From: Methanosuratincola petrocarbonis
GTDB taxonomy: Archaea > Thermoproteota > Methanomethylicia > Methanomethylicales > Methanomethylicaceae
Length of the DNA: 64,000 nucleotides
Assembly: GCA_030522375.1 (NCBI GenBank)
Contig: CP130488.1
Coordinates: 1,408,569-1,472,568 of the forward strand
Direction of reading: 5' to 3'
The translations under genes were made by a program, and so were the position numbers. Each line of letters starts with the position of its first letter. Position 1 is the first letter of the stretch. Positions 10,817-64,000 of this stretch are shown here, in pieces. Below the pieces are notes generated by a model. That model made no database searches. It was given only the letters and a program-made list of their open reading frames with translations, and had not been told where the DNA came from.

Positions 10817-10912
10817 TGGTAGCGGGGGGTGGATTTGAACCACCGATCTCGGGGTTTCTCAACCGACGGGGCTTATGAGCCCCGCGGGATAACCTGGCTA
10901 CCCCACCCCGCT
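10817..10912 (-). tRNA. Initiator tRNA-Met (anticodon CAU) with an 18-nt anticodon-loop intron
   Basis: Reverse complement reads AGCGGGGTGGGGTAGCCAGGTTATCCCGCGGGGCTCATAA[intron]CCCCGAGATCGGTGGTTCAAATCCACCCCCCGCTACCA. It has an A1:U72 pair, a GGG:CCC anticodon stem and a CUCAUAA loop. The intron lies at canonical 37/38 (about 10856-10873). CCA is encoded. Confidence 0.75.
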
Positions 10913-54756: not shown

Positions 54757-54997
54757 CCAGAGACCGCCACCATCCTATAAGGTTTGTTTAATTGGTTGAA
54801 ACTAACTGATGCGAAAGAGGGCTCTTTTCAGCGACGGGCACCGCCAGGGCTTGCTTTTTCCTCGTCAGATCTCAACGCTATGCCTAGGATCCAGATCAAC
54901 GTTCGTTGTATTCTCACTGCCGATGATCTTTTATAAACTTTTATAATATAAAAAGCATTAGTAGTGATTGCTGAATAATAAATCAGCGTTTGTTTAA

Positions 54998-55222
54998 TTA
55001 AAACTTGTGATAATTTGGTATTGATGCGATGGCGGGTCCGGAGGGATTTGAACCCTCGACCATTGACTTAGAAGGCCGCCGAAGGGGGGATTTTTCATCA
55101 GACACGGCAATTTTGATGATGTTTTGGGGGGTTGTACCGTACAGCTTCGAGAGTGCCAAGAGCTTCTCGTAGAGGTCCTCCGGGAGCGTCAAGGATCGGA
55201 AGCCTTTCCGGGGCATAAACAA
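54998..55222 (-). CDS. Ribbon-helix-helix (CopG-like) protein whose C-terminus reads through a tRNA 3' fragment
   Basis: RSLTLPEDLYEKLLALSKLYGTTPQNIIKIAV is an RHH fold. The last ~25 codons overlap the tRNA-like sequence at 55030-55078. Confidence 0.4.
   Translation of the reverse strand: MFMPRKGFRSLTLPEDLYEKLLALSKLYGTTPQNIIKIAVSDEKSPLRRPSKSMVEGSNPSGPAIASIPNYHKF
55030..55078 (-). other. tRNA 3'-half fragment (putative att site remnant)
   Basis: Reverse complement ...GGTCGAGGGTTCAAATCCCTCCGGACCCGCCA is a perfect T-arm, 7-nt acceptor 3' strand, discriminator and CCA. The matching 5' acceptor strand GGGTCCG is absent on either side. Confidence 0.45.
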
Positions 55223-55296
55223 ACACTGTTTTATATATTGAAAAATGATACCGAAAAACCTTCACCTTTGGAAGGAAAAGGACCTTTGAGCTGCGT

Positions 55297-55917
55297 TCAT
55301 GCTCTGCTTACATGGCACAACTCAATTATCCCCGACTGCCTGTAATGCCTACCAATCACCTGCAAGATCTGCCAGGAGTTCCTGAGGATGTCCTTCTGGT
55401 CGGTCGTAATGAACAAAAAGAAAATTCCTCGACTCTGGGCCCAGTCGGCGGCGTCGGCTATTATCTGGGCGTCGTTTTTGTTTCCTATGAAGTAAAGGCT
55501 GTCTACTAGTAAAAAGTCCTTAGAGCGGTCTATCAGCGGCTGGGCGGTCTTTTCCAGCGCTTCTTTTATGCTCTGCTTTATTGTGGAAAACAATAAGGTA
55601 AACCCGTAGTGCGCTTCTTCCTGGCTTTTACATTTTATTGATTTAGCCGCTTCTGATAAGAAAGCGCGGCGGTTCGGGTTCCGCTCGTTTTGCAGGGCGC
55701 GCTCTACGCTGCCCTGGCGCAGTATTTCTTTCAGAAACCTATCCATGTACCTGAAGAGCTCATCCAGCTCGCTCTTGACCGTGAGGCTGGTGTGCTTCCG
55801 ATACGCGCCTCCGTCAATGACCCTGCAGCAGTCGCTTTTATGTGGATTCCAATCCGTAGCGTACCCGTAGTAGATGCAGGTGTCTAGGAAGCAATCCGAA
55901 TGCACTTGGCTACCCAC
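55297..55917 (-). CDS. PIN-domain protein (206 aa)
   Basis: FLDTCIYY (first acidic motif), SELDELF, and C-terminal FFLFITTDQKDI (TxD motif). The extended middle region is unassigned. Confidence 0.5.
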   Translation of the reverse strand: MGSQVHSDCFLDTCIYYGYATDWNPHKSDCCRVIDGGAYRKHTSLTVKSELDELFRYMDRFLKEILRQGSVERALQNERNPNRRAFLSEAAKSIKCKSQEEAHYGFTLLFSTIKQSIKEALEKTAQPLIDRSKDFLLVDSLYFIGNKNDAQIIADAADWAQSRGIFFLFITTDQKDILRNSWQILQVIGRHYRQSGIIELCHVSRA

Positions 55918-57073
55918 GAGTCAGCGCCCCTATGAGCAACCCGGCGAGCGCCTCGCCGTCGCCGTACGACTCTTTGTAGAACTCCTTCATCTCTCTCGAC
56001 GATGCGAGTGAGCCGGCTTTAGACAGCATGATCTCGAATCCTTCAATATCCTTAGGGGCAGCCCTGAGCGCCCGCTCCAATTTAGACAGTTGGGCCTCTC
56101 TAATTTGATCGGCCCTCAACCCCTTCACCGTGGCTATAGAGAACAGGAGGGCGACGGGCTTCCAGACGTGCATGCTGTAAAATTCATACACGCGGCCCAG
56201 TTCCAGGAGTAACTTCCTGTCATGCGATGCCTTGATGGAGTACCTCTGGAAGACCTCGACGAATTTCTGGAATTGGTCGTACAGGCCAACGGATGTCATT
56301 TCCTGGCACGCCGGCGGTATCCGGTCGCCGGAGGAGCGCGCGTACTCTTCAAGCCGAGAGTAGAACTCGTCTTTTGCGAGCTCCGCAAGCATCTGGGCCA
56401 GCAGCAGGTTTTGGTTGTGGAGCGGATCGACCCGGGAGGGCACATCGATGAAGCGATCAATCCCAACGGTGCTGCAGTTTACGCCCTCCAAGAGCCTCTT
56501 TGTGGAGTAGCTCAGCTTACTATTGAGCTGGTAGAGTTTTTTGCAGAAGCCAGGGGCCTGATCGTAGAACTTTTCCAGGAAATCTTCAAGCTTTTTGAAG
56601 TATACCTCGGTCACAACCGTCTTGACTTCGCCGTAGTACTGCGCGCTCGGCAGCCCGAACTCCTCCGGGGCGATCCCGCCGACATCATTCTCACACGATT
56701 TAGGCTTCAGGTCCAGGTCGTATGACGCCATCAGCCCCTCGTCGATTTCGCCCCGGTCGTCGACGTCCAACAGGTCGCTGTGGACGTACCCGCCGTAGAG
56801 GTACCAGCTCCTCGTGATAGGGATGTCGAGCCTCTCTGCTATGAGGAAGACCATCTTCTGGAGCTTGACCTTAGATAAATAGGTCGTTCTCGGTCCGCGC
56901 CCCTCGATTTCCCGTCTCAAGTCCCTCAGGATCATTCTGAGGATCCTTTCCTCGTCCTGGGGGCTTAGGAGCGTTGGCAAAAAGGTCACCCGTAAATTGA
57001 GCAAATCATAATTTAACTTTTGTAATTGAAATATTTTTTGTTTTTTAGGTCGCTGGAGCGGCCGCACCCGCAT
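55910..57073 (-). CDS. Hypothetical protein (388 aa); start trimmed to MRVRPLQ
   Basis: The upstream part of the track ORF runs antisense through the neighbouring gene and looks spurious. No family recognised. Confidence 0.4.
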   Translation of the reverse strand: MRVRPLQRPKKQKIFQLQKLNYDLLNLRVTFLPTLLSPQDEERILRMILRDLRREIEGRGPRTTYLSKVKLQKMVFLIAERLDIPITRSWYLYGGYVHSDLLDVDDRGEIDEGLMASYDLDLKPKSCENDVGGIAPEEFGLPSAQYYGEVKTVVTEVYFKKLEDFLEKFYDQAPGFCKKLYQLNSKLSYSTKRLLEGVNCSTVGIDRFIDVPSRVDPLHNQNLLLAQMLAELAKDEFYSRLEEYARSSGDRIPPACQEMTSVGLYDQFQKFVEVFQRYSIKASHDRKLLLELGRVYEFYSMHVWKPVALLFSIATVKGLRADQIREAQLSKLERALRAAPKDIEGFEIMLSKAGSLASSREMKEFYKESYGDGEALAGLLIGALTRG

Positions 57074-57087
57074 ATCGTTTGCATCTT

Positions 57088-57893
57088 TCAGGCCGGTTTT
57101 TCCCTGATCTCGAAGACGCACCTCTTGTTGCCCTTCGCGATGCACTCGGTCTCTTCGACCTGGAAGGGCTTCCCGAAGACCTCCGCGAAGACACCGGCGA
57201 TTATCCCCCTCACCATGGCCCCGTATGGCTGCCCGGTCACTTTTGCACCATTGCACTCGAAGGAGTCGTAGACGGCGATCTTCCCGCCCGAGTCCCCGAG
57301 GTGGATCACCTCGATCCTGCCGAACCCCGCCCACTGGAATGCGGCGGTGCTGATGCGGCGGTAGATCTCTACTGGGTCCTTCAGCCCGACCGCTTCAGCG
57401 GCTGATCTGTGCAGCTTCCCGAACCCTTTGCCTGCCTCGAGCCCCTCGTAGTACAGGAAGGCCTCGCCGCCGGATCCGAACTGCTCCTTTATCCCCCTGA
57501 TGAGCCGCCTGTACCCGGCTGCTCTGAGGATTATCGCCCTGTCGCCCCCTGCCGTCAGAGGATGGGACAGGTTGTCGATGATCAAGCCTTCGGCGACGGG
57601 CTCGATGATCTTCACCTGGCTGGCCATCCCGGTGGACTCGAGCTCCTGAACGAGCTCGTTCATCGGGACGTCGCACTCCGTCACGTCCAGGAAGGTTATG
57701 ACGGGGTACGAATCGGTCGTCGCCGAGGGCGAGGAGGCGAAGTACATCGGCAGCGCCCTGTGCCTGGCCGCCGTCTTGGTCAGGGCGGGGAGGGTATCGG
57801 GGTCGGCCTTGATGATGAACCTCAGCCCCGCTAGCTTCCTGCCCGGCAGCACGAGCATTCTAGACAAGTCGAACTCATAGCTCATAGTGTTTA
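57088..57893 (-). CDS. V4R-domain protein (predicted small-molecule-binding regulator)
   Basis: C-terminal V4R pattern: SFECNGAKVTGQPYGAMVRGIIAGVFAEVFGKPFQVEETECIAKGNKRCVFEI. Start set at MSYEFDL. The track ORF extends spuriously to 58197. Confidence 0.5.
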
Positions 57894-58024
57894 ATTTCCG
57901 TTTTGCAAAAATAACACTTTCGCCCCCGAGTCCTGGCTTCCGCTTTCCGGAAATTCTTAAGCCTCCCGGAGGCGGATCGGCGTGGTGCTGGTGGGTTTCC
58001 GTGATCGGAAAGAGGCCGTCGCTC

Positions 58025-58186
58025 GTGGACTGCGGGGAGGAGCTCTTCGGCGGGAGGGTCAGGTGCAAGTACAGGGGGTGCAGGAAGTGGTGCGCCTCCT
58101 GGCTGGGTCTGGCCGTGCACCTGAGGAAGGGGCACGGGGTGTCGGCGTCGGAGGTGTCCTGGAAGGACCTGGAGGGGGAGCGGTGA
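58025..58186 (+). CDS. Small C2H2 zinc-finger protein (junction cassette copy C, gene 1)
   Basis: (V/M)DCGEELFGGRVRCKYRGCRKWCASWLGLAVHLRKGHGVS... contains C-x4-C-x12-H-x4-H. Its stop overlaps the gene 2 start (TGATG). GC about 65%. A longer ATG-initiated frame begins at 57887. Confidence 0.45.
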   Translation: MDCGEELFGGRVRCKYRGCRKWCASWLGLAVHLRKGHGVSASEVSWKDLEGER

Positions 58187-58347
58187 TGGGCTGGCACGAG
58201 TGCGAGGGCGTCCTTGAGCTGGTCCTTGTGAGGATGAAGAGGTGCGCAACGGCGGAGGAATGCCGCGGGGCCGTGGAGGAGGTCCTTGCGCTGGTCAAGG
58301 AAAGGAAGCTCGAGCGGCTGAGGGAGGAGCTGGGGGTGATTGGATAG
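58186..58347 (+). CDS. Small helical protein (junction cassette copy C, gene 2)
   Basis: MGWHECEGVLELVLVRMKRCATAEECRGAVEEVLALVKERKLERLREELGVIG is paralogous to 13056-13256 and the remnant at 16258-16353. AT-rich foreign DNA begins immediately downstream. Confidence 0.5.
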   Translation: MGWHECEGVLELVLVRMKRCATAEECRGAVEEVLALVKERKLERLREELGVIG

Positions 58348-58778
58348 ATTTTAAACTCTTTCTAAACGCTAATGAGGCAATTCGTGGCCCATATTTCTGT
58401 GATCGGGGAAACAATGATCTGCAACGACGATATCCTAAATGCAAATTATCTGAGAATTCAGCAGGTCTCATCATAACCCTCCACATCATGTGATTAATCA
58501 ATATCTTTTTTTGTCATGGAATCCGAAAAGATCGCCCCCCGATCATCTAATTACAGGAGCGCGCTCATCTTATAAAGGTCTACACATTTCATGGCGATCC
58601 ATGTCTCTATTAAACTTCGAAAAATAAAAGAAAGATTCTCTATATGATGTTTAATTTGTAGTAATGAGTCGCTCAAATAAACTAAAGGTTTCATCACGCA
58701 CTAGAGTTAGATAAAACATATATTTCCAATAGCTTATATGATGCTTACTTTTATATTAAAAATTAGGAGTGTTCTACA

Positions 58779-59375
58779 TTGAATCCAGACGATGCATTTG
58801 AGCAAAATAAAGAATGCATACCTTTTTCTGAGATAATCAAAAAAACTACCGGTCACGAAGTCCAACCACTTTCGAAAGAAGATAACGATGTGATAAATGA
58901 AATATCTGAAGCAGCTAAAAAAATTTTAGAGAGATACAAAAACGAAGTCTTTTCTGATCGACGACCTAATGAAGTTAGCAATCTTTTAGAAAGAGAATTA
59001 AGAGCTTCGCTTAAGGGTGCTAGCATACCAGAAAATAAAGCTGCAGGGTATCCAGACATCCTGATTGTAAGAGGACCTCGCTGTTTCTATATAGAAGTGA
59101 AACTGACCGGTGAAGAACAGACCGATAGTTCTTTAAGGTCTTTCTATTACGAGCCGGCAAAAAATGTTAAAATAAAAAAAGATGCGCGCCATATCCTAAT
59201 TGGATTTGAACACCGCAATAAAAATTTACATAAATTCAAAATTGTTGATCTTTCAAAAATAAATGTTTGTTTGAAAAAAGAATTCAATGCTAATAATAGA
59301 GAACTTTATAAAAAAGAGGCAATCGTGTTAGAATATCCCCCAGAAAAGTCAAATCAGTCGACTTTGGCAGGTTAA
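58779..59375 (+). CDS. Type II restriction endonuclease (PD-(D/E)xK)
   Basis: [20 protein letters not shown] gives a PD...ExK core. About 33% GC. TTG start preceded by AGGAG. Its 3' end overlaps the convergent MTase gene by 27 nt. Confidence 0.55.
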
Positions 59376-60194
59376 CCTCAATTCATTTATCCTCTTTTCT
59401 GCCTCTCTGGCATAGTATTCGTCTATCTCAAAACCTATCCAATCTATTCCCAGTTTTTTACAAGCTATGGCAGTATTACCAATGCCCATAAATGGATCGA
59501 GAACGAGTTGTGTCTTGCTAACCCCATGAAGTTTGATGCACGTCATTGGAACCTCAGGCGGAAATGACGAAGGATGAGGCCTTTGCTTTTCTTTTGATCT
59601 TATGGTATTATATGGAATAAACCAAGTGTTACCACGACATCTTAAATCTTTACTTACCGATTTCCATCTTCCTATGTTCGATTTATCTTGATAAGGCACA
59701 CCTATTGCCAGTCTATCAAGTTCAACATCCCCTTTTTTTGTAAAATGAAAAATGTATTCAAAGCAGTCATTAAGAAAGCGTTTCCCACCAATTGGTTTAA
59801 AATGCCCAACAGCAATATCGCCCTTTATGTTTGGATAATCCCCAACATCTTCTTTCTTTATGGCGATAGACTTGACCCAAATGATAATGTTCTGAAGCGT
59901 GAAGTATTTTCTTAACCTGAAAGCGACTTCCCATGGCACCCAAAGATCGGTAGGCTTGTGCCCAAAGTTAAGGAAGAATGATCCATCTTTGTGCAATACA
60001 CGCCTACACTCTTTTCCTACTTCGTCAATCCAAGCTAAGTAATCTTCCCGAGGTATAGTGTCGTCATATTTATTGTACTTCACCCCAATATTGTATGGAG
60101 GCGAAGTAACGATTACATCGACTTCTTCTGGGTTGAGAAGGGTTTTCATACCTTCCAAGCAATCCATTACATAGATTTTGTTTCTTTCAATCAT
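59349..60194 (-). CDS. Beta-class DNA methyltransferase (N4-cytosine/N6-adenine; SPPY motif)
   Basis: Motif [14 protein letters not shown] lies N-terminal to motif [14 protein letters not shown], i.e. beta-class order. N-terminal [13 protein letters not shown]. Confidence 0.85.
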
Positions 60195-60432
60195 CGTCTA
60201 AACCTCAAGCTCAATCCACTTTTTTCTTGCTCTTTCAATCTTTTAAGCACATACTCCATGGCATGGGTTCCATTAGCGAACCGTTAAGAGCTTATTAAAG
60301 TGCCTATCCATGAAAGTAAATTCTCATCTAAAGAGATGCTTGCCTTCATTTTTCCCATTTCATATACCTCATAATATTGATTATATTGGCTTTTTTATTG
60401 ATCAATTTTGAGTTGTGATAAGACATGGCAAA

Positions 60433-60699
60433 TTAATCCTCCGCCAGAGCTCTTATTTCCTCCAGCTTCTCGGCCACCTTCTTCCCCTTCTCGGTTAGCG
60501 AGATGAGTCTTCTAGGAGGGAAACTTTCTTCACGCTTCTCAGTAATTAGACCGAGACTCAAAAGAATTCTAAGATTATTGTAAACAGTCTGCCGGTTCAT
60601 TTTGCCAAATGAAACAATATCTGACAAAGTCCACTCTTTCTTCGAGTCGCTATTTAGTACTGTCAAAATCTCTTGAGCTGGACTAAGCAGGTTATTCAT
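60433..60699 (-). CDS. Small wHTH regulator upstream of the MTase (possible controller)
   Basis: 88 aa. NRQTVYNNLRILLSLGLITEK is a winged-helix recognition element. Same strand as the MTase. Confidence 0.45.
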   Translation of the reverse strand: MNNLLSPAQEILTVLNSDSKKEWTLSDIVSFGKMNRQTVYNNLRILLSLGLITEKREESFPPRRLISLTEKGKKVAEKLEEIRALAED

Positions 60700-61224: not shown

Positions 61225-61982
61225 CGGAAGAAAGAGGTATGGGTCTGTCGTCCGCCGCGCCGGGAGGTCCCCATGATAATTTTTCACCGGGAGCAAATGA
61301 ACATGACGATTATAAATCTATAATGAATTGCAATACCTCCATTTCCACTCCATCCACTGGAACTCCACGCGGGTATAATATACGCCAAAATGCGTGTTAT
61401 AATTATAATGATTATAATTATAATGGTTATAATTATAACGAGAGCTCCTATAATAATATAGGCTCGCGCACTCCAGTGGCTCCAATGGAAATGGAGGTTC
61501 CGAGGAAGACCGTGGTCGTGAGTGCGGGAATTCCTCATGACCTCTTTGCAAAGCTGAGCGAGCGCGAGAAGATCACCGGTCGGTCCCGTTCCGAAATAAT
61601 CAAGGAAGCCCTTTCCCTCTACCTCAACGGCGACCCGCAAATAACCGACGTCCCGCCGCCAAGGCCGTCCCTGTCGTCCCAGCTGCAAGCAAGCAAAAGC
61701 CGGGAAGAGCTCCAGGACCTTTTGAAGTCGCTCACGAATACCCTGTTAGCCGTCCGCGATGGCATGTGCGAGCCGCTGTGGGTCAAGGAATGGTACCCGC
61801 GCTGGAACAAGCGCCTCATAAGTGCAGTCCAGAAGCTAGAGCCGATGGACGACTTCCAGGAGCGGCTCGTCAGGGTGATGTCATCGATTGCAAAAGAGCT
61901 TAGAAACATCGACCCGAGGTCCGAAGAAGCCTACGGGCGTACGAAGTCGCTCTTGGAACAACTCATGGAGGCGAGACCATGA
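61221..61982 (+). CDS. RHH-domain protein with N/Y-rich low-complexity insert and C-terminal helical domain
   Basis: RHH block RKTVVVSAGIPHDLFAKLSEREKITGRSRSEIIKEALSLYL. The insert NYNDYNYNGYNYNESSYNN is encoded by a (TATAAT)-like tandem repeat. Confidence 0.5.
   Translation: MTEERGMGLSSAAPGGPHDNFSPGANEHDDYKSIMNCNTSISTPSTGTPRGYNIRQNACYNYNDYNYNGYNYNESSYNNIGSRTPVAPMEMEVPRKTVVVSAGIPHDLFAKLSEREKITGRSRSEIIKEALSLYLNGDPQITDVPPPRPSLSSQLQASKSREELQDLLKSLTNTLLAVRDGMCEPLWVKEWYPRWNKRLISAVQKLEPMDDFQERLVRVMSSIAKELRNIDPRSEEAYGRTKSLLEQLMEARP
61385..61440 (+). repeat. Hexanucleotide (TATAAT/TATAAC-like) tandem repeat inside a coding region
   Basis: aattataatgattataattataatggttataattataac encodes NYNDYNYNGYNYN. 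Confidence 0.6.
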
Positions 61983-62104
61983 GCTACAAGTTCGAGTTCT
62001 TCTGCATATTCTGCGGGAAGCCCGAGGACCCGAAGGGCCCCACCTCGTGCCCGGAGTGCCGCGAGAAGCTCAAGGCGAAGCAGGAGGCTGCTCAACCACA
62101 ATGA
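61979..62104 (+). CDS. Zinc-ribbon mini-protein (41 aa)
   Basis: MSYKFEFFCIFCGKPEDPKGPTSCPECREKLKAKQEAAQPQ with CxxC...CxxC. Start and stop overlap the neighbouring genes (ATGA, ATGATGA). Confidence 0.4.
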   Translation: MSYKFEFFCIFCGKPEDPKGPTSCPECREKLKAKQEAAQPQ

Positions 62105-62607
62105 TGACGGTCTTCCAGCAGGCGTACAAGGGCAGGTGGGAGGAGTCTAACCTCTGCGAGGAAATAGCCTTCAGGGTCCTGCGCCTTAACTTCGGCCTCG
62201 GCCCAGAAGACATAATCGTGACCGGCAAAGGCGCCCTCTCGGGCAAGCTCCTGGACGACCCGCTCGAGTCGCCCCCCGACTTCTACGTCCCCAAATTGAA
62301 CCTGTGGTTCGAGGTGACGTCGAGCAACCTGACGAGCGAGGAGTCTCACTGCCGCTGCACGCGATACGGTCTGAATTTCCCCCATATTTTCGTGAGGGAG
62401 GGGAAGCTCGAGGTCCTGAGGATGAACCGGGCGCTTTCCAGGGCGTACTTCGTGAGCGTGAACTGGGCGGACGGGTCCGTCCTCTTCCTCCCGGCTAAGA
62501 AGGCACTTCAGCATGACACTGTGGACTGGTACGAGCGCGGGGGGCGGGAGCGGTACTACGCGATTCCTTGGAGGGAGTGGCTCAAGCCGGGGCAGGTGAG
62601 GGCGTGA
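62101..62607 (+). CDS. Hypothetical protein (168 aa), possible nuclease-like fold
   Basis: Start at MMTV. DFYVPKLNLWFEVTSSN is weakly PD-(D/E)xK-like with Thr in place of Lys. Tentative. Confidence 0.4.
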   Translation: MMTVFQQAYKGRWEESNLCEEIAFRVLRLNFGLGPEDIIVTGKGALSGKLLDDPLESPPDFYVPKLNLWFEVTSSNLTSEESHCRCTRYGLNFPHIFVREGKLEVLRMNRALSRAYFVSVNWADGSVLFLPAKKALQHDTVDWYERGGRERYYAIPWREWLKPGQVRA

Positions 62608-62616
62608 GCGGTTAAC

Positions 62617-62814
62617 ATGGGCGGAAAGAATCAAGCTTCTCTTCGCAAAATCCGCGAGAACAGGAGCACCACCCACATCAGGGTAAAAAAGCAGGTCAAG
62701 TTCGCCCTGGAAAGGTGGATGAGGAAGCACCACGTGAAGACCTACAGCCAGGCGGTCAGGAAGCTTTTGGATGGGGCGGGGGACTATAGGAGTGGAAATA
62801 AATGGGAGCCGTAA
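62617..62814 (+). CDS. Ribbon-helix-helix protein
   Basis: THIRVKKQVKFALERWMRKHHVKTYSQAVRKLL. Confidence 0.45.
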   Translation: MGGKNQASLRKIRENRSTTHIRVKKQVKFALERWMRKHHVKTYSQAVRKLLDGAGDYRSGNKWEP

Positions 62815-62971
62815 ACAAAGTCTCGGTTTCTGTTAAGCTCGACCCGGAAATACGCGACCTCGCCGTCCAGGTCGCGAGGGCGAAGGGCATGGACCTTTCC
62901 GAGCACATCAGGGGGCTGATCGTGGAGGACCTCGACAGGCGGGGGCTCCTGAAAGTGCTGCCCATCAGGTA
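62802..62971 (+). CDS. Ribbon-helix-helix protein (56 aa, not in the ORF track)
   Basis: MGAVNKVSVSVKLDPEIRDLAVQVARAKGMDLSEHIRGLIVEDLDRRGLLKVLPIR. Overlaps the 3' end of the previous gene in another frame. Confidence 0.4.
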
Positions 62972-63043
62972 ATCCCTGCGTATTCTCTGCGGAATCACCA
63001 TCATTTTTTGCCATCACCATGTAAAATTTTTCATGGTGATAAA

Positions 63044-63514
63044 ATGGAAAGGAATAAACTGATGCCCATTATGGCAGCCTTCGCAGCCTTCGCCGTCCTC
63101 TTTTCGATCGCAGCCCCAGCAGCCCTCGCAGCCGCTACCAACGTGACTTTCACGGTAAAGAAGGACACGGTGGCGGCAGCCAATGCGACTATAGCCGTGT
63201 ACGAGATCGAGAGCAAGTACTTCGGCCTGTACCAGAAGGTCGGCGCATATGCCGGCTCCGCGATCACCGACGCCAACGGCACCGCGACAATAAGCGGGCT
63301 CGACAGCGCCAAGACCTACCTTGCGAAGATAACCTACGCCGGCAGGACATATGAACACAAGTTCGCCCCAGCCACCGAGGTCGCCATTTCGCTCACTGAG
63401 ACCAGCTGGATACGGGGCAACATAGTGCCGCTGCTCCTGGGAGGCGCCGCCGTTTTCGTGCTGCTCTTCATCATCGCGCAGGTGAACCCGAGGGCGGTCA
63501 GGTTCGGGAGGTGA
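63044..63514 (+). CDS. Secreted Ig-like/carboxypeptidase-regulatory-like domain protein with C-terminal TM anchor
   Basis: Signal peptide MERNKLMPIMAAFAAFAVLFSIAAPAALA. Beta-rich domain (TFTVKKDTV...TDANGTATISGL). C-terminal hydrophobic helix plus basic tail (RAVRFGR). Confidence 0.5.
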   Translation: MERNKLMPIMAAFAAFAVLFSIAAPAALAAATNVTFTVKKDTVAAANATIAVYEIESKYFGLYQKVGAYAGSAITDANGTATISGLDSAKTYLAKITYAGRTYEHKFAPATEVAISLTETSWIRGNIVPLLLGGAAVFVLLFIIAQVNPRAVRFGR

Positions 63515-63550
63515 GGGGCGCTTTTTAGCCCCTTCTTTGGAGGTGACGCG

Positions 63551-64000
63551 ATGCGCAAAGAAAGGAGCTTTGCGGTAATCGCCCTGGCGCTGTTTTGCTG
63601 CTTCCTGGTCGGGTCAGCCCAGCCCGTCCACGCAGTTATCCCGCTTATTCCTTTTGCGTTAGGGATGTTGGCGGGATCGGTGCTAGTCGGATGGCTTTTG
63701 GGAGTTTTCACAACACCATATCCAGGCATATCCCCGCTAGATTTATTGCAAAATTTCTACTCCGCCAAAGTAAACGAATTTAGAGCATTAACGACAGGGC
63801 TAAACAACACAGCCGAAGCCTTGGAAGGTGTGAGCTATTACCTTTCAAGGAAGGCCACAACCACGGCGCAAATGTATATCAACGAAAGCACTTTTCCAGC
63901 CAACAAAGTATTGAACGTAAGCGGAATTTTGACCGAGGCATCAAACGAATATTTCTCATATATTCAGTCCTATCAATACATATTTGACGACATAAGAAGA
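63551..64000 (+). CDS. Secreted/membrane protein, 3' end beyond window
   Basis: N-terminal signal/TM segments. The ORF continues past position 64000. Confidence 0.4.
   Translation, partial: MRKERSFAVIALALFCCFLVGSAQPVHAVIPLIPFALGMLAGSVLVGWLLGVFTTPYPGISPLDLLQNFYSAKVNEFRALTTGLNNTAEALEGVSYYLSRKATTTAQMYINESTFPANKVLNVSGILTEASNEYFSYIQSYQYIFDDIRR

What the first reader, a model, noticed from the sequence alone, without database searches (positions are those of the whole stretch)
54998..55222. tRNA 3'-half fragment with an RHH gene reading into it: candidate att scar opening an integrated element (55.0 kb to beyond the window end)
A perfect T-arm, acceptor 3' strand, G discriminator and CCA are present at 55030-55078 on the minus strand. 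No matching 5' half exists nearby, and the flanking 54.78-55.02 kb is AT-rich non-coding. The fragment orientation predicts that the intact target tRNA lies to the right, beyond the window. The intervening DNA carries PIN, RHH, RM and secreted-protein genes typical of integrated plasmids or proviruses.
Basis: partly seen in the sequence, partly recalled or inferred. Interest (0 to 1): 0.6.

Follow-up and report, generated by a model that had tools for sequence, protein, structure and literature searches.

The report
Provirus junction with split integrase gene
The half-tRNA is one end of a roughly 14.6-kb virus-like element inserted into the tRNA-Arg(UCU) gene of a thermophilic methanogen, and the small "RHH gene" reading into it is the front piece of the element's own integrase gene, which was cut in two by the insertion; this mechanism is known from hyperthermophile viruses but is seen here in a new host lineage and with a new domain layout.

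Summary
Window 55030-55077 (minus strand) is a perfect copy of positions 29-76 of tRNA-Arg(UCU). Relatives carry the intact tRNA at the syntenic site, and synteny stops inside it. To the right lies a roughly 14.6-kb virus-like element.

The far junction is beyond the window. It was recovered from the window's own 1.54-Mb chromosome (probably Methanosuratincola petrocarbonis LWZ-6). An integrase ORF call there (P0253) reads through host flank, an intact tRNA-Arg and a 66-nt arm into a tyrosine integrase. A joined-ends (attP) junction exists in a sister MAG contig (L031).

The RHH ORF (55216-54998) is not a free-standing gene. In the attP form it is in frame with the integrase through the 51-bp att core. 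Uninterrupted homologues have the layout RHH, att-encoded disordered linker, core-binding domain, catalytic domain. Relatives that target tRNA-Phe show the same split. So this is an SSV-type ("suicidal") partitioned integrase, although its folded part is closest to XerA.

A split or permuted tRNA is ruled out. The "PIN" label is not supported. Novelty is a new variant of a known kind, and interest is moderate.

The parts
55027..55077 (-). att core (51 nt) at the fragment-side junction (called attL here): tRNA-Arg(UCU) positions 29-76 (55077->55030) plus 3 nt downstream (TCG)
   Evidence: Identical in attL (window), attP (L031 27-77) and attB (L016; L013 differs at 1 nt after the CCA)
54998..55216 (-). 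int(N): N-terminal fragment of the partitioned integrase gene. It comprises the RHH-like domain (about 55216-55091), the start of the linker, the att core translated as ..PSKSMVEGSNPSGPAI.., and a short tail read from host DNA ending at a stop codon
   Evidence: In frame with the integrase in attP form L031. The composite aligns end to end with uninterrupted P0142 (46% identity, E=2e-107). RHH/CcdA Pfam hits in full-length homologues. AF2 model.
54780..55026 (.). Host intergenic DNA downstream of the original tRNA-Arg gene (not part of the element)
   Evidence: 78-81% identical to the DNA downstream of tRNA-Arg in L013/L016
55078..64000 (.). Left 8.9 kb of the integrated element, which continues to about window-equivalent 69,630. 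The integrase ATG is at about 69,567 and the intact tRNA-Arg at about 69,633-69,708, both on the minus strand
   Evidence: No similarity to relatives' chromosomes. Extension stitched from L017 (100% identical to 62406-64000), L032 (100% identical to L017) and L031 (92%).
55297..55917 (-).
   Evidence: No hit in Pfam, PHROGs, PADLOC or NCBIfam
55910..57334 (-). Cargo ORF, up to 474 aa, function unknown, true start uncertain
   Evidence: No family hit
57088..58197 (-). V4R-domain (MsvR C-terminal-like) protein. The homology starts near residue 104-105 of this ORF, so the true start is probably internal (near 57,885)
   Evidence: PF02830 E=8.6e-17; NF053755 partial match; chromosomal homologues in L026 and L037
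58779..59375 (+). Type II restriction endonuclease (cargo, low-GC patch)
   Evidence: PADLOC REase_II E=2.5e-22; GC 33-39%
59349..60194 (-). Type II N4/N6 DNA methyltransferase (cargo)
   Evidence: PF01555 E=1.3e-45; PADLOC MTase_II E=4.9e-131
60433..60699 (-). Winged-helix regulator; first gene of the module conserved among related elements
   Evidence: Pfam HxlR/PadR; homologues in L021 and L026
60839..61027 (+). CopG-type RHH protein (conserved module)
   Evidence: PF01402 E=7e-6; 63-69% identical homologues in L026 and L021
61221..61982 (+). 253-aa protein with an internal RHH domain
   Evidence: PF01402; phrog_7325 CopG-like repressor
61888..62607 (+). Viral/archaeal nuclease
   Evidence: PF12187 E=4.7e-6; phrog_9634. 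Its only matches among deposited viruses are Sulfolobus spindle-shaped viruses, E about 1e-14.
62617..62972 (+). Two small overlapping ORFs (65 aa and 56 aa); the second is weakly RHH/DUF6290-like
63062..63514 (+). 150-aa protein with a hydrophobic N-terminal segment and a hydrophobic C-terminal segment (conserved module)
   Evidence: Sequence; 73-89% identical homologues in L026 and L021
63551..64000 (+). Start of a 589-aa protein with hydrophobic N- and C-terminal segments and many N-x-S/T sequons (putative envelope or spike protein); it runs off the window
   Evidence: Full ORF in L017 1146-2915; homologues in L021, L026 and L033; no family or virus match

Best explanation
The feature is the fragment-side attachment junction (attL) of a roughly 14.6-kb virus-like element that integrated by site-specific recombination into the tRNA-Arg(UCU) gene of a Methanosuratincola chromosome.

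In its free circular form, the element carries a 51-bp attP copy of the tRNA's 3' part (position 29 through CCA, plus 3 nt). This attP lies inside its own integrase gene, in the linker between an N-terminal ribbon-helix-helix domain and a XerA-like core-binding plus catalytic module.

Recombination with the chromosomal tRNA (attB) had two consequences. First, it left the original 3' part of the tRNA stranded at 55030-55077 next to the unchanged host downstream flank, while the element-supplied copy completes an intact tRNA about 14.6 kb to the right. Second, it split the integrase gene into int(N), which is the RHH ORF 55216-54998 now running through the att core into host DNA, and int(C), a 277-aa unit next to the intact tRNA.

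Shown: the junction anatomy; attB, attP and attR; the in-frame continuity; the existence of uninterrupted homologues; and a second split example at tRNA-Phe.

Inferred: that the full-length protein is the active integrase; that the RHH domain supplies dimerisation and/or arm-type DNA binding; that the element is a virus rather than a plasmid; and that it can still excise.
For: attB: intact tRNA-Arg(UCU) at the syntenic site in L013, L016 and L012. Window synteny (88% nt identity over 6.7 kb) ends at tRNA position 29.

attP: L031 nt 1-26 are identical to window 55103-55078, followed by the core, a 62-nt arm (66 nt from the CCA to the ATG) and the integrase, which is back to back with the ATPase.

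attR in the window's own genome: ATPase P0251 is 100% identical to the sequence continuing the window. Integrase ORF call P0253 is on the same 1,538,194-nt contig. Its N-terminus equals the translation of host flank (ANIEIFIGTA.LN..G) + the complete tRNA (VRGADWIARWPSKSMVEGSNPSGPA) + the attP arm (IEPSLPASKKLHQEKSFFNKRE) + the integrase.

Partition: there is no stop between the RHH and the integrase in L031. The composite is colinear with P0142 (E=2e-107). P0185, P0218 and P0231 carry CcdA-type RHH + SAM-like + catalytic domains. Unsplit P0137 in L033 has a tRNA-Arg(UCG) 3' half inside its linker, there is no tRNA gene on that contig, and the contig shares the element's gene module.

Independent replicate at tRNA-Phe: L035, L040 and L043 (RHH ORF reading into the fragment) and L026 and L039 (intact tRNA + int(C)) use the same frame.

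AF2 model: an RHH-like segment at residues 10-39, a disordered linker at 40-92 and a confident recombinase at 100-360.

The integrase passes the Pfam cut-offs for PF00589 and PF16795.
Against: The DNA of the window's own attR was never read directly. It is inferred from a protein (P0253) and from sister contigs, so its distance (about 14.6 kb) is stitched from L017, L032 and L031.

L031 reaches only 26 nt beyond the core on the RHH side, and it could come from a tandem insertion rather than a free circle.

The window's own RHH fragment has no significant Pfam hit (best is RHH_5, E=0.23). The PDB profile match to AvtR is weak (E=0.032).

Int(C) keeps both the core-binding and the catalytic domains and has its own ATG, so the RHH part may be dispensable and the split may be functionally neutral.

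By fold and sequence the enzyme is nearer to XerA than to SSV1 Int. No capsid protein was recognised, so the virus label is not established.
Confidence: 0.88

Rival explanations
1. The fragment is the 3' half of a split or permuted tRNA. The GC-rich stretch upstream (CCCCCCTTCGGCGG) would be a leader that pairs with a 5'-half transcript encoded elsewhere, as in Nanoarchaeum or Caldivirga.
For: The 3' half ends in an encoded CCA and is preceded by a GC-rich 14-16-mer. The host is an archaeon whose other tRNAs carry introns.
Against: There is no complementary partner or 5' half in the window. Close relatives have a normal contiguous tRNA-Arg(UCU) at this exact locus. The same genome has an intact copy next to the integrase. 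The 'leader' is coding sequence of the integrase linker (..SPLRRP..) and recurs in attP. The anticodon loop is present in the fragment, so no bulge-helix-bulge (BHB) splice junction is apparent.
Confidence: 0.01
2. This is a classical, non-partitioning (pNOB8-type or lambda-type) integration. The RHH ORF is an independent small regulator or antitoxin gene that merely abuts attP, and its in-frame continuity with the integrase is coincidental.
For: Int(C) is by itself a complete two-domain XerA-like recombinase of 277 aa with its own ATG, and gene callers annotate it as such. An open frame of about 45 codons occurs by chance about 10% of the time (my estimate). The element carries several other free-standing RHH genes.
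Against: Uninterrupted 361-390-aa homologues join RHH and integrase in a single called ORF. One of them (P0142) has an N-terminus that is 21/29 identical to the window's. The frame is open across att in four independent att types: Arg-UCU, Phe, the L021 tRNA, and Arg-UCG in the unsplit L033. The tRNA-Phe junctions use the same frame on both sides.
Confidence: 0.08
3. This is a dead remnant. The fragment marks an ancient, now immobile insertion (a decaying genomic island) with no living element behind it.
For: By the standard view, partitioned integrases cannot excise on their own (PMC8371274). The left 5 kb is a patchwork of cargo with aberrant GC.
Against: int(N) and int(C) are both intact, and when joined they give an uninterrupted ORF. 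The att core is perfect. An attP-type junction with a protein-identical integrase exists in a sister MAG of the same species. Contigs 99-100% identical to it recur in several sequencing runs. The closest sequenced relatives lack the insertion, which points to a recent event.
Confidence: 0.1

Closest known systems
SSV-type ('suicidal', type I) archaeal integrases: SSV1/SSV2 (Fuselloviridae), pTN3 and pT26-2 (Thermococcales/Archaeoglobales), as reviewed in PMC8371274 and PMC7253208
   Same: attP lies inside the integrase ORF. The target is the 3' part of a tRNA gene. Integration splits the gene into int(N) and int(C), and the junction peptide is the translation of att. The integrase passes the PF16795 cut-off. 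pT26-2 even uses a 51-bp att in tRNA-Arg(TCT) (PMC7253208). Among deposited virus genomes the integrase and the nuclease match only fuselloviruses.
   Different: The host is a moderately thermophilic (55 C optimum) methanogen of the Methanosuratincolia, not a hyperthermophile. Int(N) is an RHH domain, which the 2021 review does not mention. Int(C) is a complete XerA-like core-binding plus catalytic unit. Sequence and fold are closer to XerA than to SSV1 Int. Here int and the tRNA are parallel, whereas pT26-2 is antiparallel. The rest of the element shows no detectable similarity to SSV, pTN3 or pT26-2.
Archaeal XerA chromosome-dimer resolvases (PDB 4a8e, 5hxy)
   Same: Best sequence match (E=1.6e-12) and best structural match for residues 100-360.
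   Different: XerA is a chromosomal housekeeping enzyme acting at dif. It has no RHH domain, no tRNA-derived att inside the gene and no association with a mobile element.
pNOB8-type / SNJ2-type (classical, type II) archaeal integrases and bacterial lambda-like integrases
   Same: tRNA-gene targeting, with an intact tRNA regenerated at one junction and a 3' fragment left at the other. An extra N-terminal DNA-binding domain joined by a flexible linker recalls lambda Int's arm-binding domain.
   Different: In those systems attP lies outside the int ORF and the gene stays whole after integration. Here the gene is partitioned.

Membership tests
tRNA-gene-integrated mobile element (att junction) | Partial tRNA copy identical to the 3' part of an intact tRNA gene, with host synteny on one side only | tested here: met
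   48/48 nt identity; synteny with L013 and L016 ends at tRNA position 29
tRNA-gene-integrated mobile element (att junction) | Empty site (attB) in related genomes | tested here: met
   Intact tRNA-Arg(UCU) with the same flanks on both sides in L013 and L016, and also in L012
tRNA-gene-integrated mobile element (att junction) | Second junction with an intact tRNA plus an integrase in the same genome | tested here: met
   The P0253 N-terminus translates flank + intact tRNA + arm + integrase. It is on the same 1.54-Mb contig as P0251, which is 100% identical to the window's continuation. This is protein-level evidence; the DNA itself was not read.
tRNA-gene-integrated mobile element (att junction) | attP: the two element ends joined through the core | tested here: met
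   L031 nt 1-139. A circle and a tandem insertion cannot be told apart.
SSV-type / suicidal integrase (functional definition) | attP located inside the integrase ORF | tested here: met
   Open in-frame ORF across attP in L031. A tRNA 3' half lies inside the unsplit int gene of L033. Full-length homologues exist.
SSV-type / suicidal integrase (functional definition) | The gene is split into int(N) and int(C) at the two junctions of the integrated form | tested here: met
   Window int(N) at 55216-54998 and P0253/P0139 int(C). Replicated at tRNA-Phe in L035/L040/L043 versus L026/L039.
SSV-type / suicidal integrase (functional definition) | Int(C) alone is inactive or impaired, so excision needs a complete integrase | not testable with these tools
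   Needs biochemistry. Int(C) here retains the core-binding and catalytic domains, so this may not hold.
SSV integrase family (phylogenetic: PF16795 superfamily of PMC8371274) | Match to Phage_integr_3 (PF16795) above its cut-off | tested here: met
   43.8 bits for P0139 and 32-38 bits for the long forms, against a cut-off of 27. PF00589 scores as high or higher for most of them.
SSV integrase family (phylogenetic: PF16795 superfamily of PMC8371274) | Closer to SSV/pTN3/pT26-2 integrases than to classical or Xer recombinases | tested here: inconclusive
   Among deposited viruses only SSVs match (24% identity, E=1e-5). However, XerA is the best PDB match by sequence and by fold, and SSV1 Int is absent from the top 50. 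No phylogeny was made.
Ribbon-helix-helix (CopG/CcdA-like) domain, for Int(N) | Significant profile match, or beta-alpha-alpha topology with the G-x-S/T/N turn | tested here: inconclusive
   For the window fragment the best hit is RHH_5 at E=0.23. Homologous N-termini of P0185, P0218 and P0231 hit CcdA at 8.6e-8 to 2.4e-4. G27 is invariant in alignment A3. The AF2 model shows an extended segment plus two helices at pLDDT about 80. The PDB profile hits AvtR at E=0.032, which I recall as an RHH regulator of a lipothrixvirus.
Split / permuted tRNA gene | A separately encoded 5' half with a complementary leader/trailer, and no contiguous gene | tested here: not met
   No partner in the window. A contiguous gene is present in relatives and in the same genome.
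Fuselloviridae (spindle-shaped viruses) | Fusellovirus-type major capsid protein and conserved core genes | tested here: not met
   Only the integrase and the nuclease match SSVs. The ATPase, the 589-aa protein and the small membrane proteins have no match in the phage collection, PHROGs or IMG/VR. No capsid protein was identified.
   No hit in Pfam (E<=0.01), PHROGs, PADLOC or NCBIfam. Its structure was not modelled.

The most novel reading that the evidence does not exclude
The element is the integrated form of a previously undescribed virus family of Methanosuratincolia. That would make it the first provirus of a cultured methanogen of the Thermoproteota. Its partitioning integrase would be an independently evolved or deeply divergent branch of 'suicidal' integrases, built as RHH, an att-encoded disordered linker, and a XerA-like recombinase. 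In this design the split is not suicide but a switch. After integration, the freed RHH Int(N), still driven by its own promoter, would act as a stand-alone regulator or directionality factor, while the still-complete Int(C) would provide catalysis. Integration and excision would then be carried out by different protein forms.
Probability: 0.2. Interest if true: 0.75.

Novelty: new variant of a known kind. Interest (0 to 1): 0.45.

Why it matters
First, it extends self-partitioning ("suicidal") integrases to a new lineage. The review literature describes them as a speciality of hyperthermophilic Sulfolobales, Thermococcales and Archaeoglobales. Here they appear in methyl-reducing methanogens of the Thermoproteota that grow best at 55 C.

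Second, it shows a clean modular layout of RHH, disordered att-encoded linker and XerA-like recombinase. This offers a simple reason why these enzymes can switch tRNA targets: the att sequence is translated in a linker that tolerates any sequence.

Third, the host appears to be a cultured strain (M. petrocarbonis LWZ-6). Excision, induction, virion production and the roles of Int(N) and Int(C) can therefore be tested directly. The integrase with its 51-bp att site is also a ready-made candidate for a chromosomal integration tool, and I know of no genetic system for this group.

Fourth, for annotation: the 74-aa "RHH gene", the 47-aa antisense ORF and the 341-aa "integrase" that reads through a tRNA are all artefacts of the junction and should be re-annotated.

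Tried and rejected
Split-tRNA idea: I searched the window for the complement of the GC-rich 'leader' and for the tRNA 5' half and found nothing.

Scans that found nothing: the att core in IMG/VR; the element-specific left junction in JGI metagenomes; ATPase-family relatives in IMG/VR.

Contig look-ups: P0009 and P0253, which are on the window's own 1.54-Mb chromosome, are not indexed, so the attR DNA could not be fetched. P0010 and P0011 (host flank orthologues) gave contigs that end just before the tRNA. Integrases P0132 (L029, next to a D5/primase-like gene) and P0131 (L030, at tRNA-Arg-TCG) belong to other elements.

Direct-repeat search in L026 found no second att copy, because the far end lies outside the fetched 10-kb flank. 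L026's contig is not in the metagenome collection, but that scan did turn up the tRNA-Phe attL-type contigs.

The single-sequence AlphaFold run of P0142 was useless (pLDDT 36) and was repeated with a 66-sequence alignment.

The PDB profile search with the short RHH alignment was dominated by designed helical repeat proteins.

The sigma-70 promoter scan is not informative for an archaeon.

Literature searches for Methanosuratincola + integrase, Methanomethylicia + provirus, and Verstraetearchaeota virus + integrase found no prior description.
Full report
OBSERVATION. The window is archaeal: it holds a 23S rRNA, an archaeal RNase P RNA and three tRNAs. On the minus strand, 55077->55030 reads GGCCTTCTAAGTCAATGGTCGAGGGTTCAAATCCCTCCGGACCCGCCA. 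This covers the end of the anticodon stem, an anticodon loop with UCU, the variable loop, a perfect T-arm, the acceptor 3' strand, discriminator G and CCA. Neither ARAGORN nor Rfam calls a tRNA here. The matching 5' half is absent from all 64 kb even with three mismatches allowed. ORF 54998-55222 (minus strand) reads straight through the fragment.

WHERE THE WINDOW COMES FROM, AND THE EMPTY SITE. A scan of one genome per species for the 3'-half sequence returned 16 loci, nearly all from Methanomethylicia/Methanosuratincola. Window 48.1-54.85 kb is 88% identical to L016, and 51.0-54.85 kb is 88% identical to L013 (Ca. M. verstraetei LCB70, complete genome). Both carry an intact tRNA-Arg(UCU) at the syntenic position, as does the more distant L012. 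The alignment shows that the window matches these tRNAs perfectly from position 29 to the CCA and continues into the conserved downstream intergenic DNA. Everything 5' of position 29 is unrelated. So relatives show the empty attB site, and in the window the tRNA has been interrupted.

THE INSERTED DNA. Nothing to the right of 55078 matches the relatives' chromosomes. The region encodes the following:
- two ORFs with no family hit;
- a V4R protein;
- a type II restriction-modification pair in a 33-39% GC patch;
- a winged-helix regulator;
- several CopG-type RHH proteins;
- a viral/archaeal nuclease (PF12187);
- a 150-aa protein with hydrophobic N- and C-terminal segments;
- the start of a 589-aa protein with hydrophobic N- and C-terminal segments and many N-x-S/T sequons.

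Contig L017 is 100% identical to window 62406-64000 and extends the sequence by 4 kb. It adds the rest of the 589-aa gene, four small genes and an nSTAND3/AAA ATPase. The same gene order, from the winged-helix gene to the ATPase, recurs in L021, L022, L026, L027 and L028. In each contig that extends past the ATPase (L021, L026, L027) it is followed by a tyrosine integrase and then an intact tRNA on the integrase's strand: tRNA-Phe in L026 and L027, and an intron-containing tRNA in L021.

THE OTHER JUNCTION AND attP. Cluster members of the ATPase and of a candidate integrase include P0251 and P0253, both on a 1,538,194-nt NCBI contig. P0251 is 100% identical to the ATPase fragment that continues the window, so that contig is the window's own chromosome. 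Its size and the MAG names point to M. petrocarbonis LWZ-6, whose genome is 1.54 Mbp and whose growth optimum is 55 C; its description (PMC12244365) mentions no virus.

P0253 is an over-extended integrase ORF call. Its first 64 residues are exactly the translation of four segments in order: the host upstream flank seen in L013 and L016, a complete tRNA-Arg(UCU), a 66-nt arm, and then the integrase start. This is the predicted intact-tRNA junction, at the protein level.

L031 is a 2.6-kb contig of an M. petrocarbonis MAG. It starts with 26 nt identical to window 55103-55078 (the RHH side of the element). It continues through the att core into the same arm and a protein-identical integrase, which is back to back with the ATPase. 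That is an attP-type junction, from either a circle or a tandem copy.

The core shared by attL, attP and attB is 51 nt (window 55027-55077). Stitching L017, L032 and L031 places the integrase ATG near window-equivalent 69,567 and the tRNA near 69,633-69,708. The element is therefore about 14.6 kb.

WHAT THE 'RHH GENE' IS. In L031, the frame of the RHH ORF runs without a stop through the core and arm into the integrase ATG. Among integrase homologues, several are 361-390 aa long rather than about 280.
- P0142 starts MPRKGYRSLTLPEADYLKLEELARLYGTT, against the window's MPRKGFRSLTLPEDLYEKLLALSKLYGTT. A composite of the window RHH, the L031 linker and the integrase aligns with P0142 end to end (46% identity, E=2e-107).
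- P0185, P0218 and P0231 carry a significant CcdA-type RHH domain ahead of the SAM-like and catalytic domains.
- P0137 is unsplit and sits on L033. That 10.6-kb contig has no tRNA gene but does have homologues of the 589-aa, 296-aa, 104-aa and 118-aa proteins and of the ATPase. Its linker DNA contains a tRNA-Arg(UCG) 3' half, in this case antisense to the ORF.

An AlphaFold model of P0142 built with 66 homologues (mean pLDDT 82.8) shows three parts. Residues 10-39 form an extended segment plus two helices. Residues 40-92, which include the att-encoded peptide, are a disordered linker. Residues 100-360 are a confident two-domain recombinase.

An independent replicate comes from relatives that target tRNA-Phe. 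Contigs L035, L040 and L043 hold an ORF, MPRKGFKSITVPSDLYERI..., that reads into a tRNA-Phe fragment beginning at position 27. L026 and L039 hold the intact tRNA-Phe followed by int(C). The att peptide (..PAEDRSVAGSSPASGTF..) is in the same frame on both sides.

The RHH ORF is therefore int(N), the N-terminal fragment of an integrase gene that contains its own attP and is partitioned by integration.

COMPARISON WITH WHAT IS KNOWN. This is the defining behaviour of SSV-type (type I, 'suicidal') archaeal integrases: attP lies within the ORF, the target is a tRNA 3' end, the gene splits into int(N) and int(C), and the att site is translated at the junction (PMC8371274, PMC7253208). pT26-2 even uses a 51-bp att in tRNA-Arg(TCT). 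The integrase passes the PF16795 cut-off. In the collection of about 50,000 deposited phage and virus genomes, the integrase and the nuclease each match only Sulfolobus spindle-shaped viruses.

There are four differences. First, the host lineage and its growth temperature are new for this mechanism. Second, the N-terminal domain is RHH-like; the review attributes multimerisation to the N-terminal part but never mentions RHH or CopG. Third, Int(C) is a complete unit, and XerA is its best match by both sequence and fold, while SSV1 Int is not among the top 50 structural hits. Fourth, in the window's element int and the tRNA are parallel. Functional membership in the SSV type is therefore met, and phylogenetic membership is left open.

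The rest of the element (ATPase, 589-aa protein, small membrane proteins) has no detectable relative in deposited viruses, PHROGs or IMG/VR. No capsid protein was recognised. I therefore call it virus-like and do not assign it to Fuselloviridae.

RIVALS. A split or permuted tRNA is excluded. Relatives and the same genome have a contiguous gene. No partner half exists in the window. The GC-rich 'leader' is linker coding sequence that recurs in attP. A classical non-partitioning integrase with an unrelated adjacent RHH gene is unlikely, given the uninterrupted homologues and the open frame across four different att types. It cannot be fully dismissed without protein data, because Int(C) looks self-sufficient. 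A dead remnant is unlikely: both gene halves and the core are intact, an attP junction exists in the population, and the nearest relatives lack the insertion.

LIMITS. The DNA of the window's own attR was not read, because that contig is not indexed. L031 covers only 26 nt beyond the core on the RHH side. The RHH assignment for the window's own fragment rests on homology to better-scoring relatives and on a model, not on a significant direct profile hit. Activity, excision and virion formation are untested.

VERDICT. The feature is an ordinary kind of thing for archaea, a tRNA-integrated element with a partitioned integrase. It is a new variant in a newly cultured and interesting host, so interest is moderate.

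Noticed in passing
window 55029-55172 (+): The 47-aa ORF 'MAGPEGFEPSTIDLEGRRRG...' is just the antisense translation of the tRNA fragment. Integrase ORF calls P0132, P0133, P0134, P0140 and P0212 begin with or contain the same kind of peptide (MVGPLGFEPR...). L033's unsplit int gene has its tRNA-like att antisense to the ORF. So both att orientations relative to int occur in this integrase family.
   Followed up: partly
window 58500-60500: The type II restriction-modification pair (REase 58779-59375, MTase 59349-60194) sits in a 33-39% GC patch inside an element that is otherwise 53-61% GC. It looks like a separately acquired island within the island. Related elements carry different cargo at this position: an MmeI-like R-M gene in L026 and a 558-aa gene in L021.
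   Followed up: partly
window 57088-58197 (-): The element carries a V4R/MsvR-C-terminal-like gene. Its closest relatives in the fetched loci (39-41% identity) are chromosomal genes in L026 (17018-17899) and L037 (9340-10119), which suggests a host gene captured by the element.
   Followed up: no
L017 4863-5654 / P0251 (window-equivalent about 67.3-68.5 kb): The conserved ATPase (nSTAND3/AAA P-loop) has an invariant C-terminal ...G-E-P-D...K... motif, and JGI names a homologue 'Holliday junction resolvase'. This may be a fusion of an ATPase with a PD-(D/E)xK-type nuclease. It has no relative in deposited viruses or in IMG/VR.
   Followed up: partly
window 54978-54996 and 55216-55234: A 19-nt inverted repeat (89% complementary; ATAAATCAGCGTTTGTTTA / TAAACAAACACTGTTTTAT) brackets the int(N) ORF. 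One arm lies in host downstream DNA and the other at the int(N) start and promoter region. An AT-rich TATA-like motif (AATATATAAAA) lies 13-23 nt upstream of the int(N) ATG. This could be chance or a protein-binding site.
   Followed up: no
L030 9893-10870: Another M. petrocarbonis MAG (JBCQFM010000002.1) has a 68%-identical integrase (P0131) directly downstream of tRNA-Arg(TCG) on the same strand, followed by only a few genes. This is a second, different integrated element of the same integrase family in this species.
   Followed up: no
window 62406 (start of L017); L019, L020, L018: Public assemblies break the element at 62406 and hold variants that are 99% (L019, L020) and 95% (L018) identical. 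L031's ATPase is 86-92% identical at the nucleotide level although its integrase protein is identical. Several recombinant variants of the element seem to coexist in the source enrichments.
   Followed up: partly
window 10817-10912 (-): An intron-containing tRNA. ARAGORN reports 'tRNA-???' with the 4-base anticodon 'cata', and Rfam scores it as a tRNA at 51.7 bits. It is probably a CAU-anticodon tRNA (Met or Ile2) with an intron. Related loci show the same pattern for tRNA-Arg(CCG), tRNA-Trp and others.
   Followed up: no
P0253 on the window's own chromosome (about window-equivalent 69.57-69.76 kb): The public annotation of this genome calls a 341-aa 'integrase' whose first 64 residues are a read-through of host intergenic DNA and the tRNA-Arg gene. 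This is an annotation artefact that hides the tRNA/att junction.
   Followed up: yes
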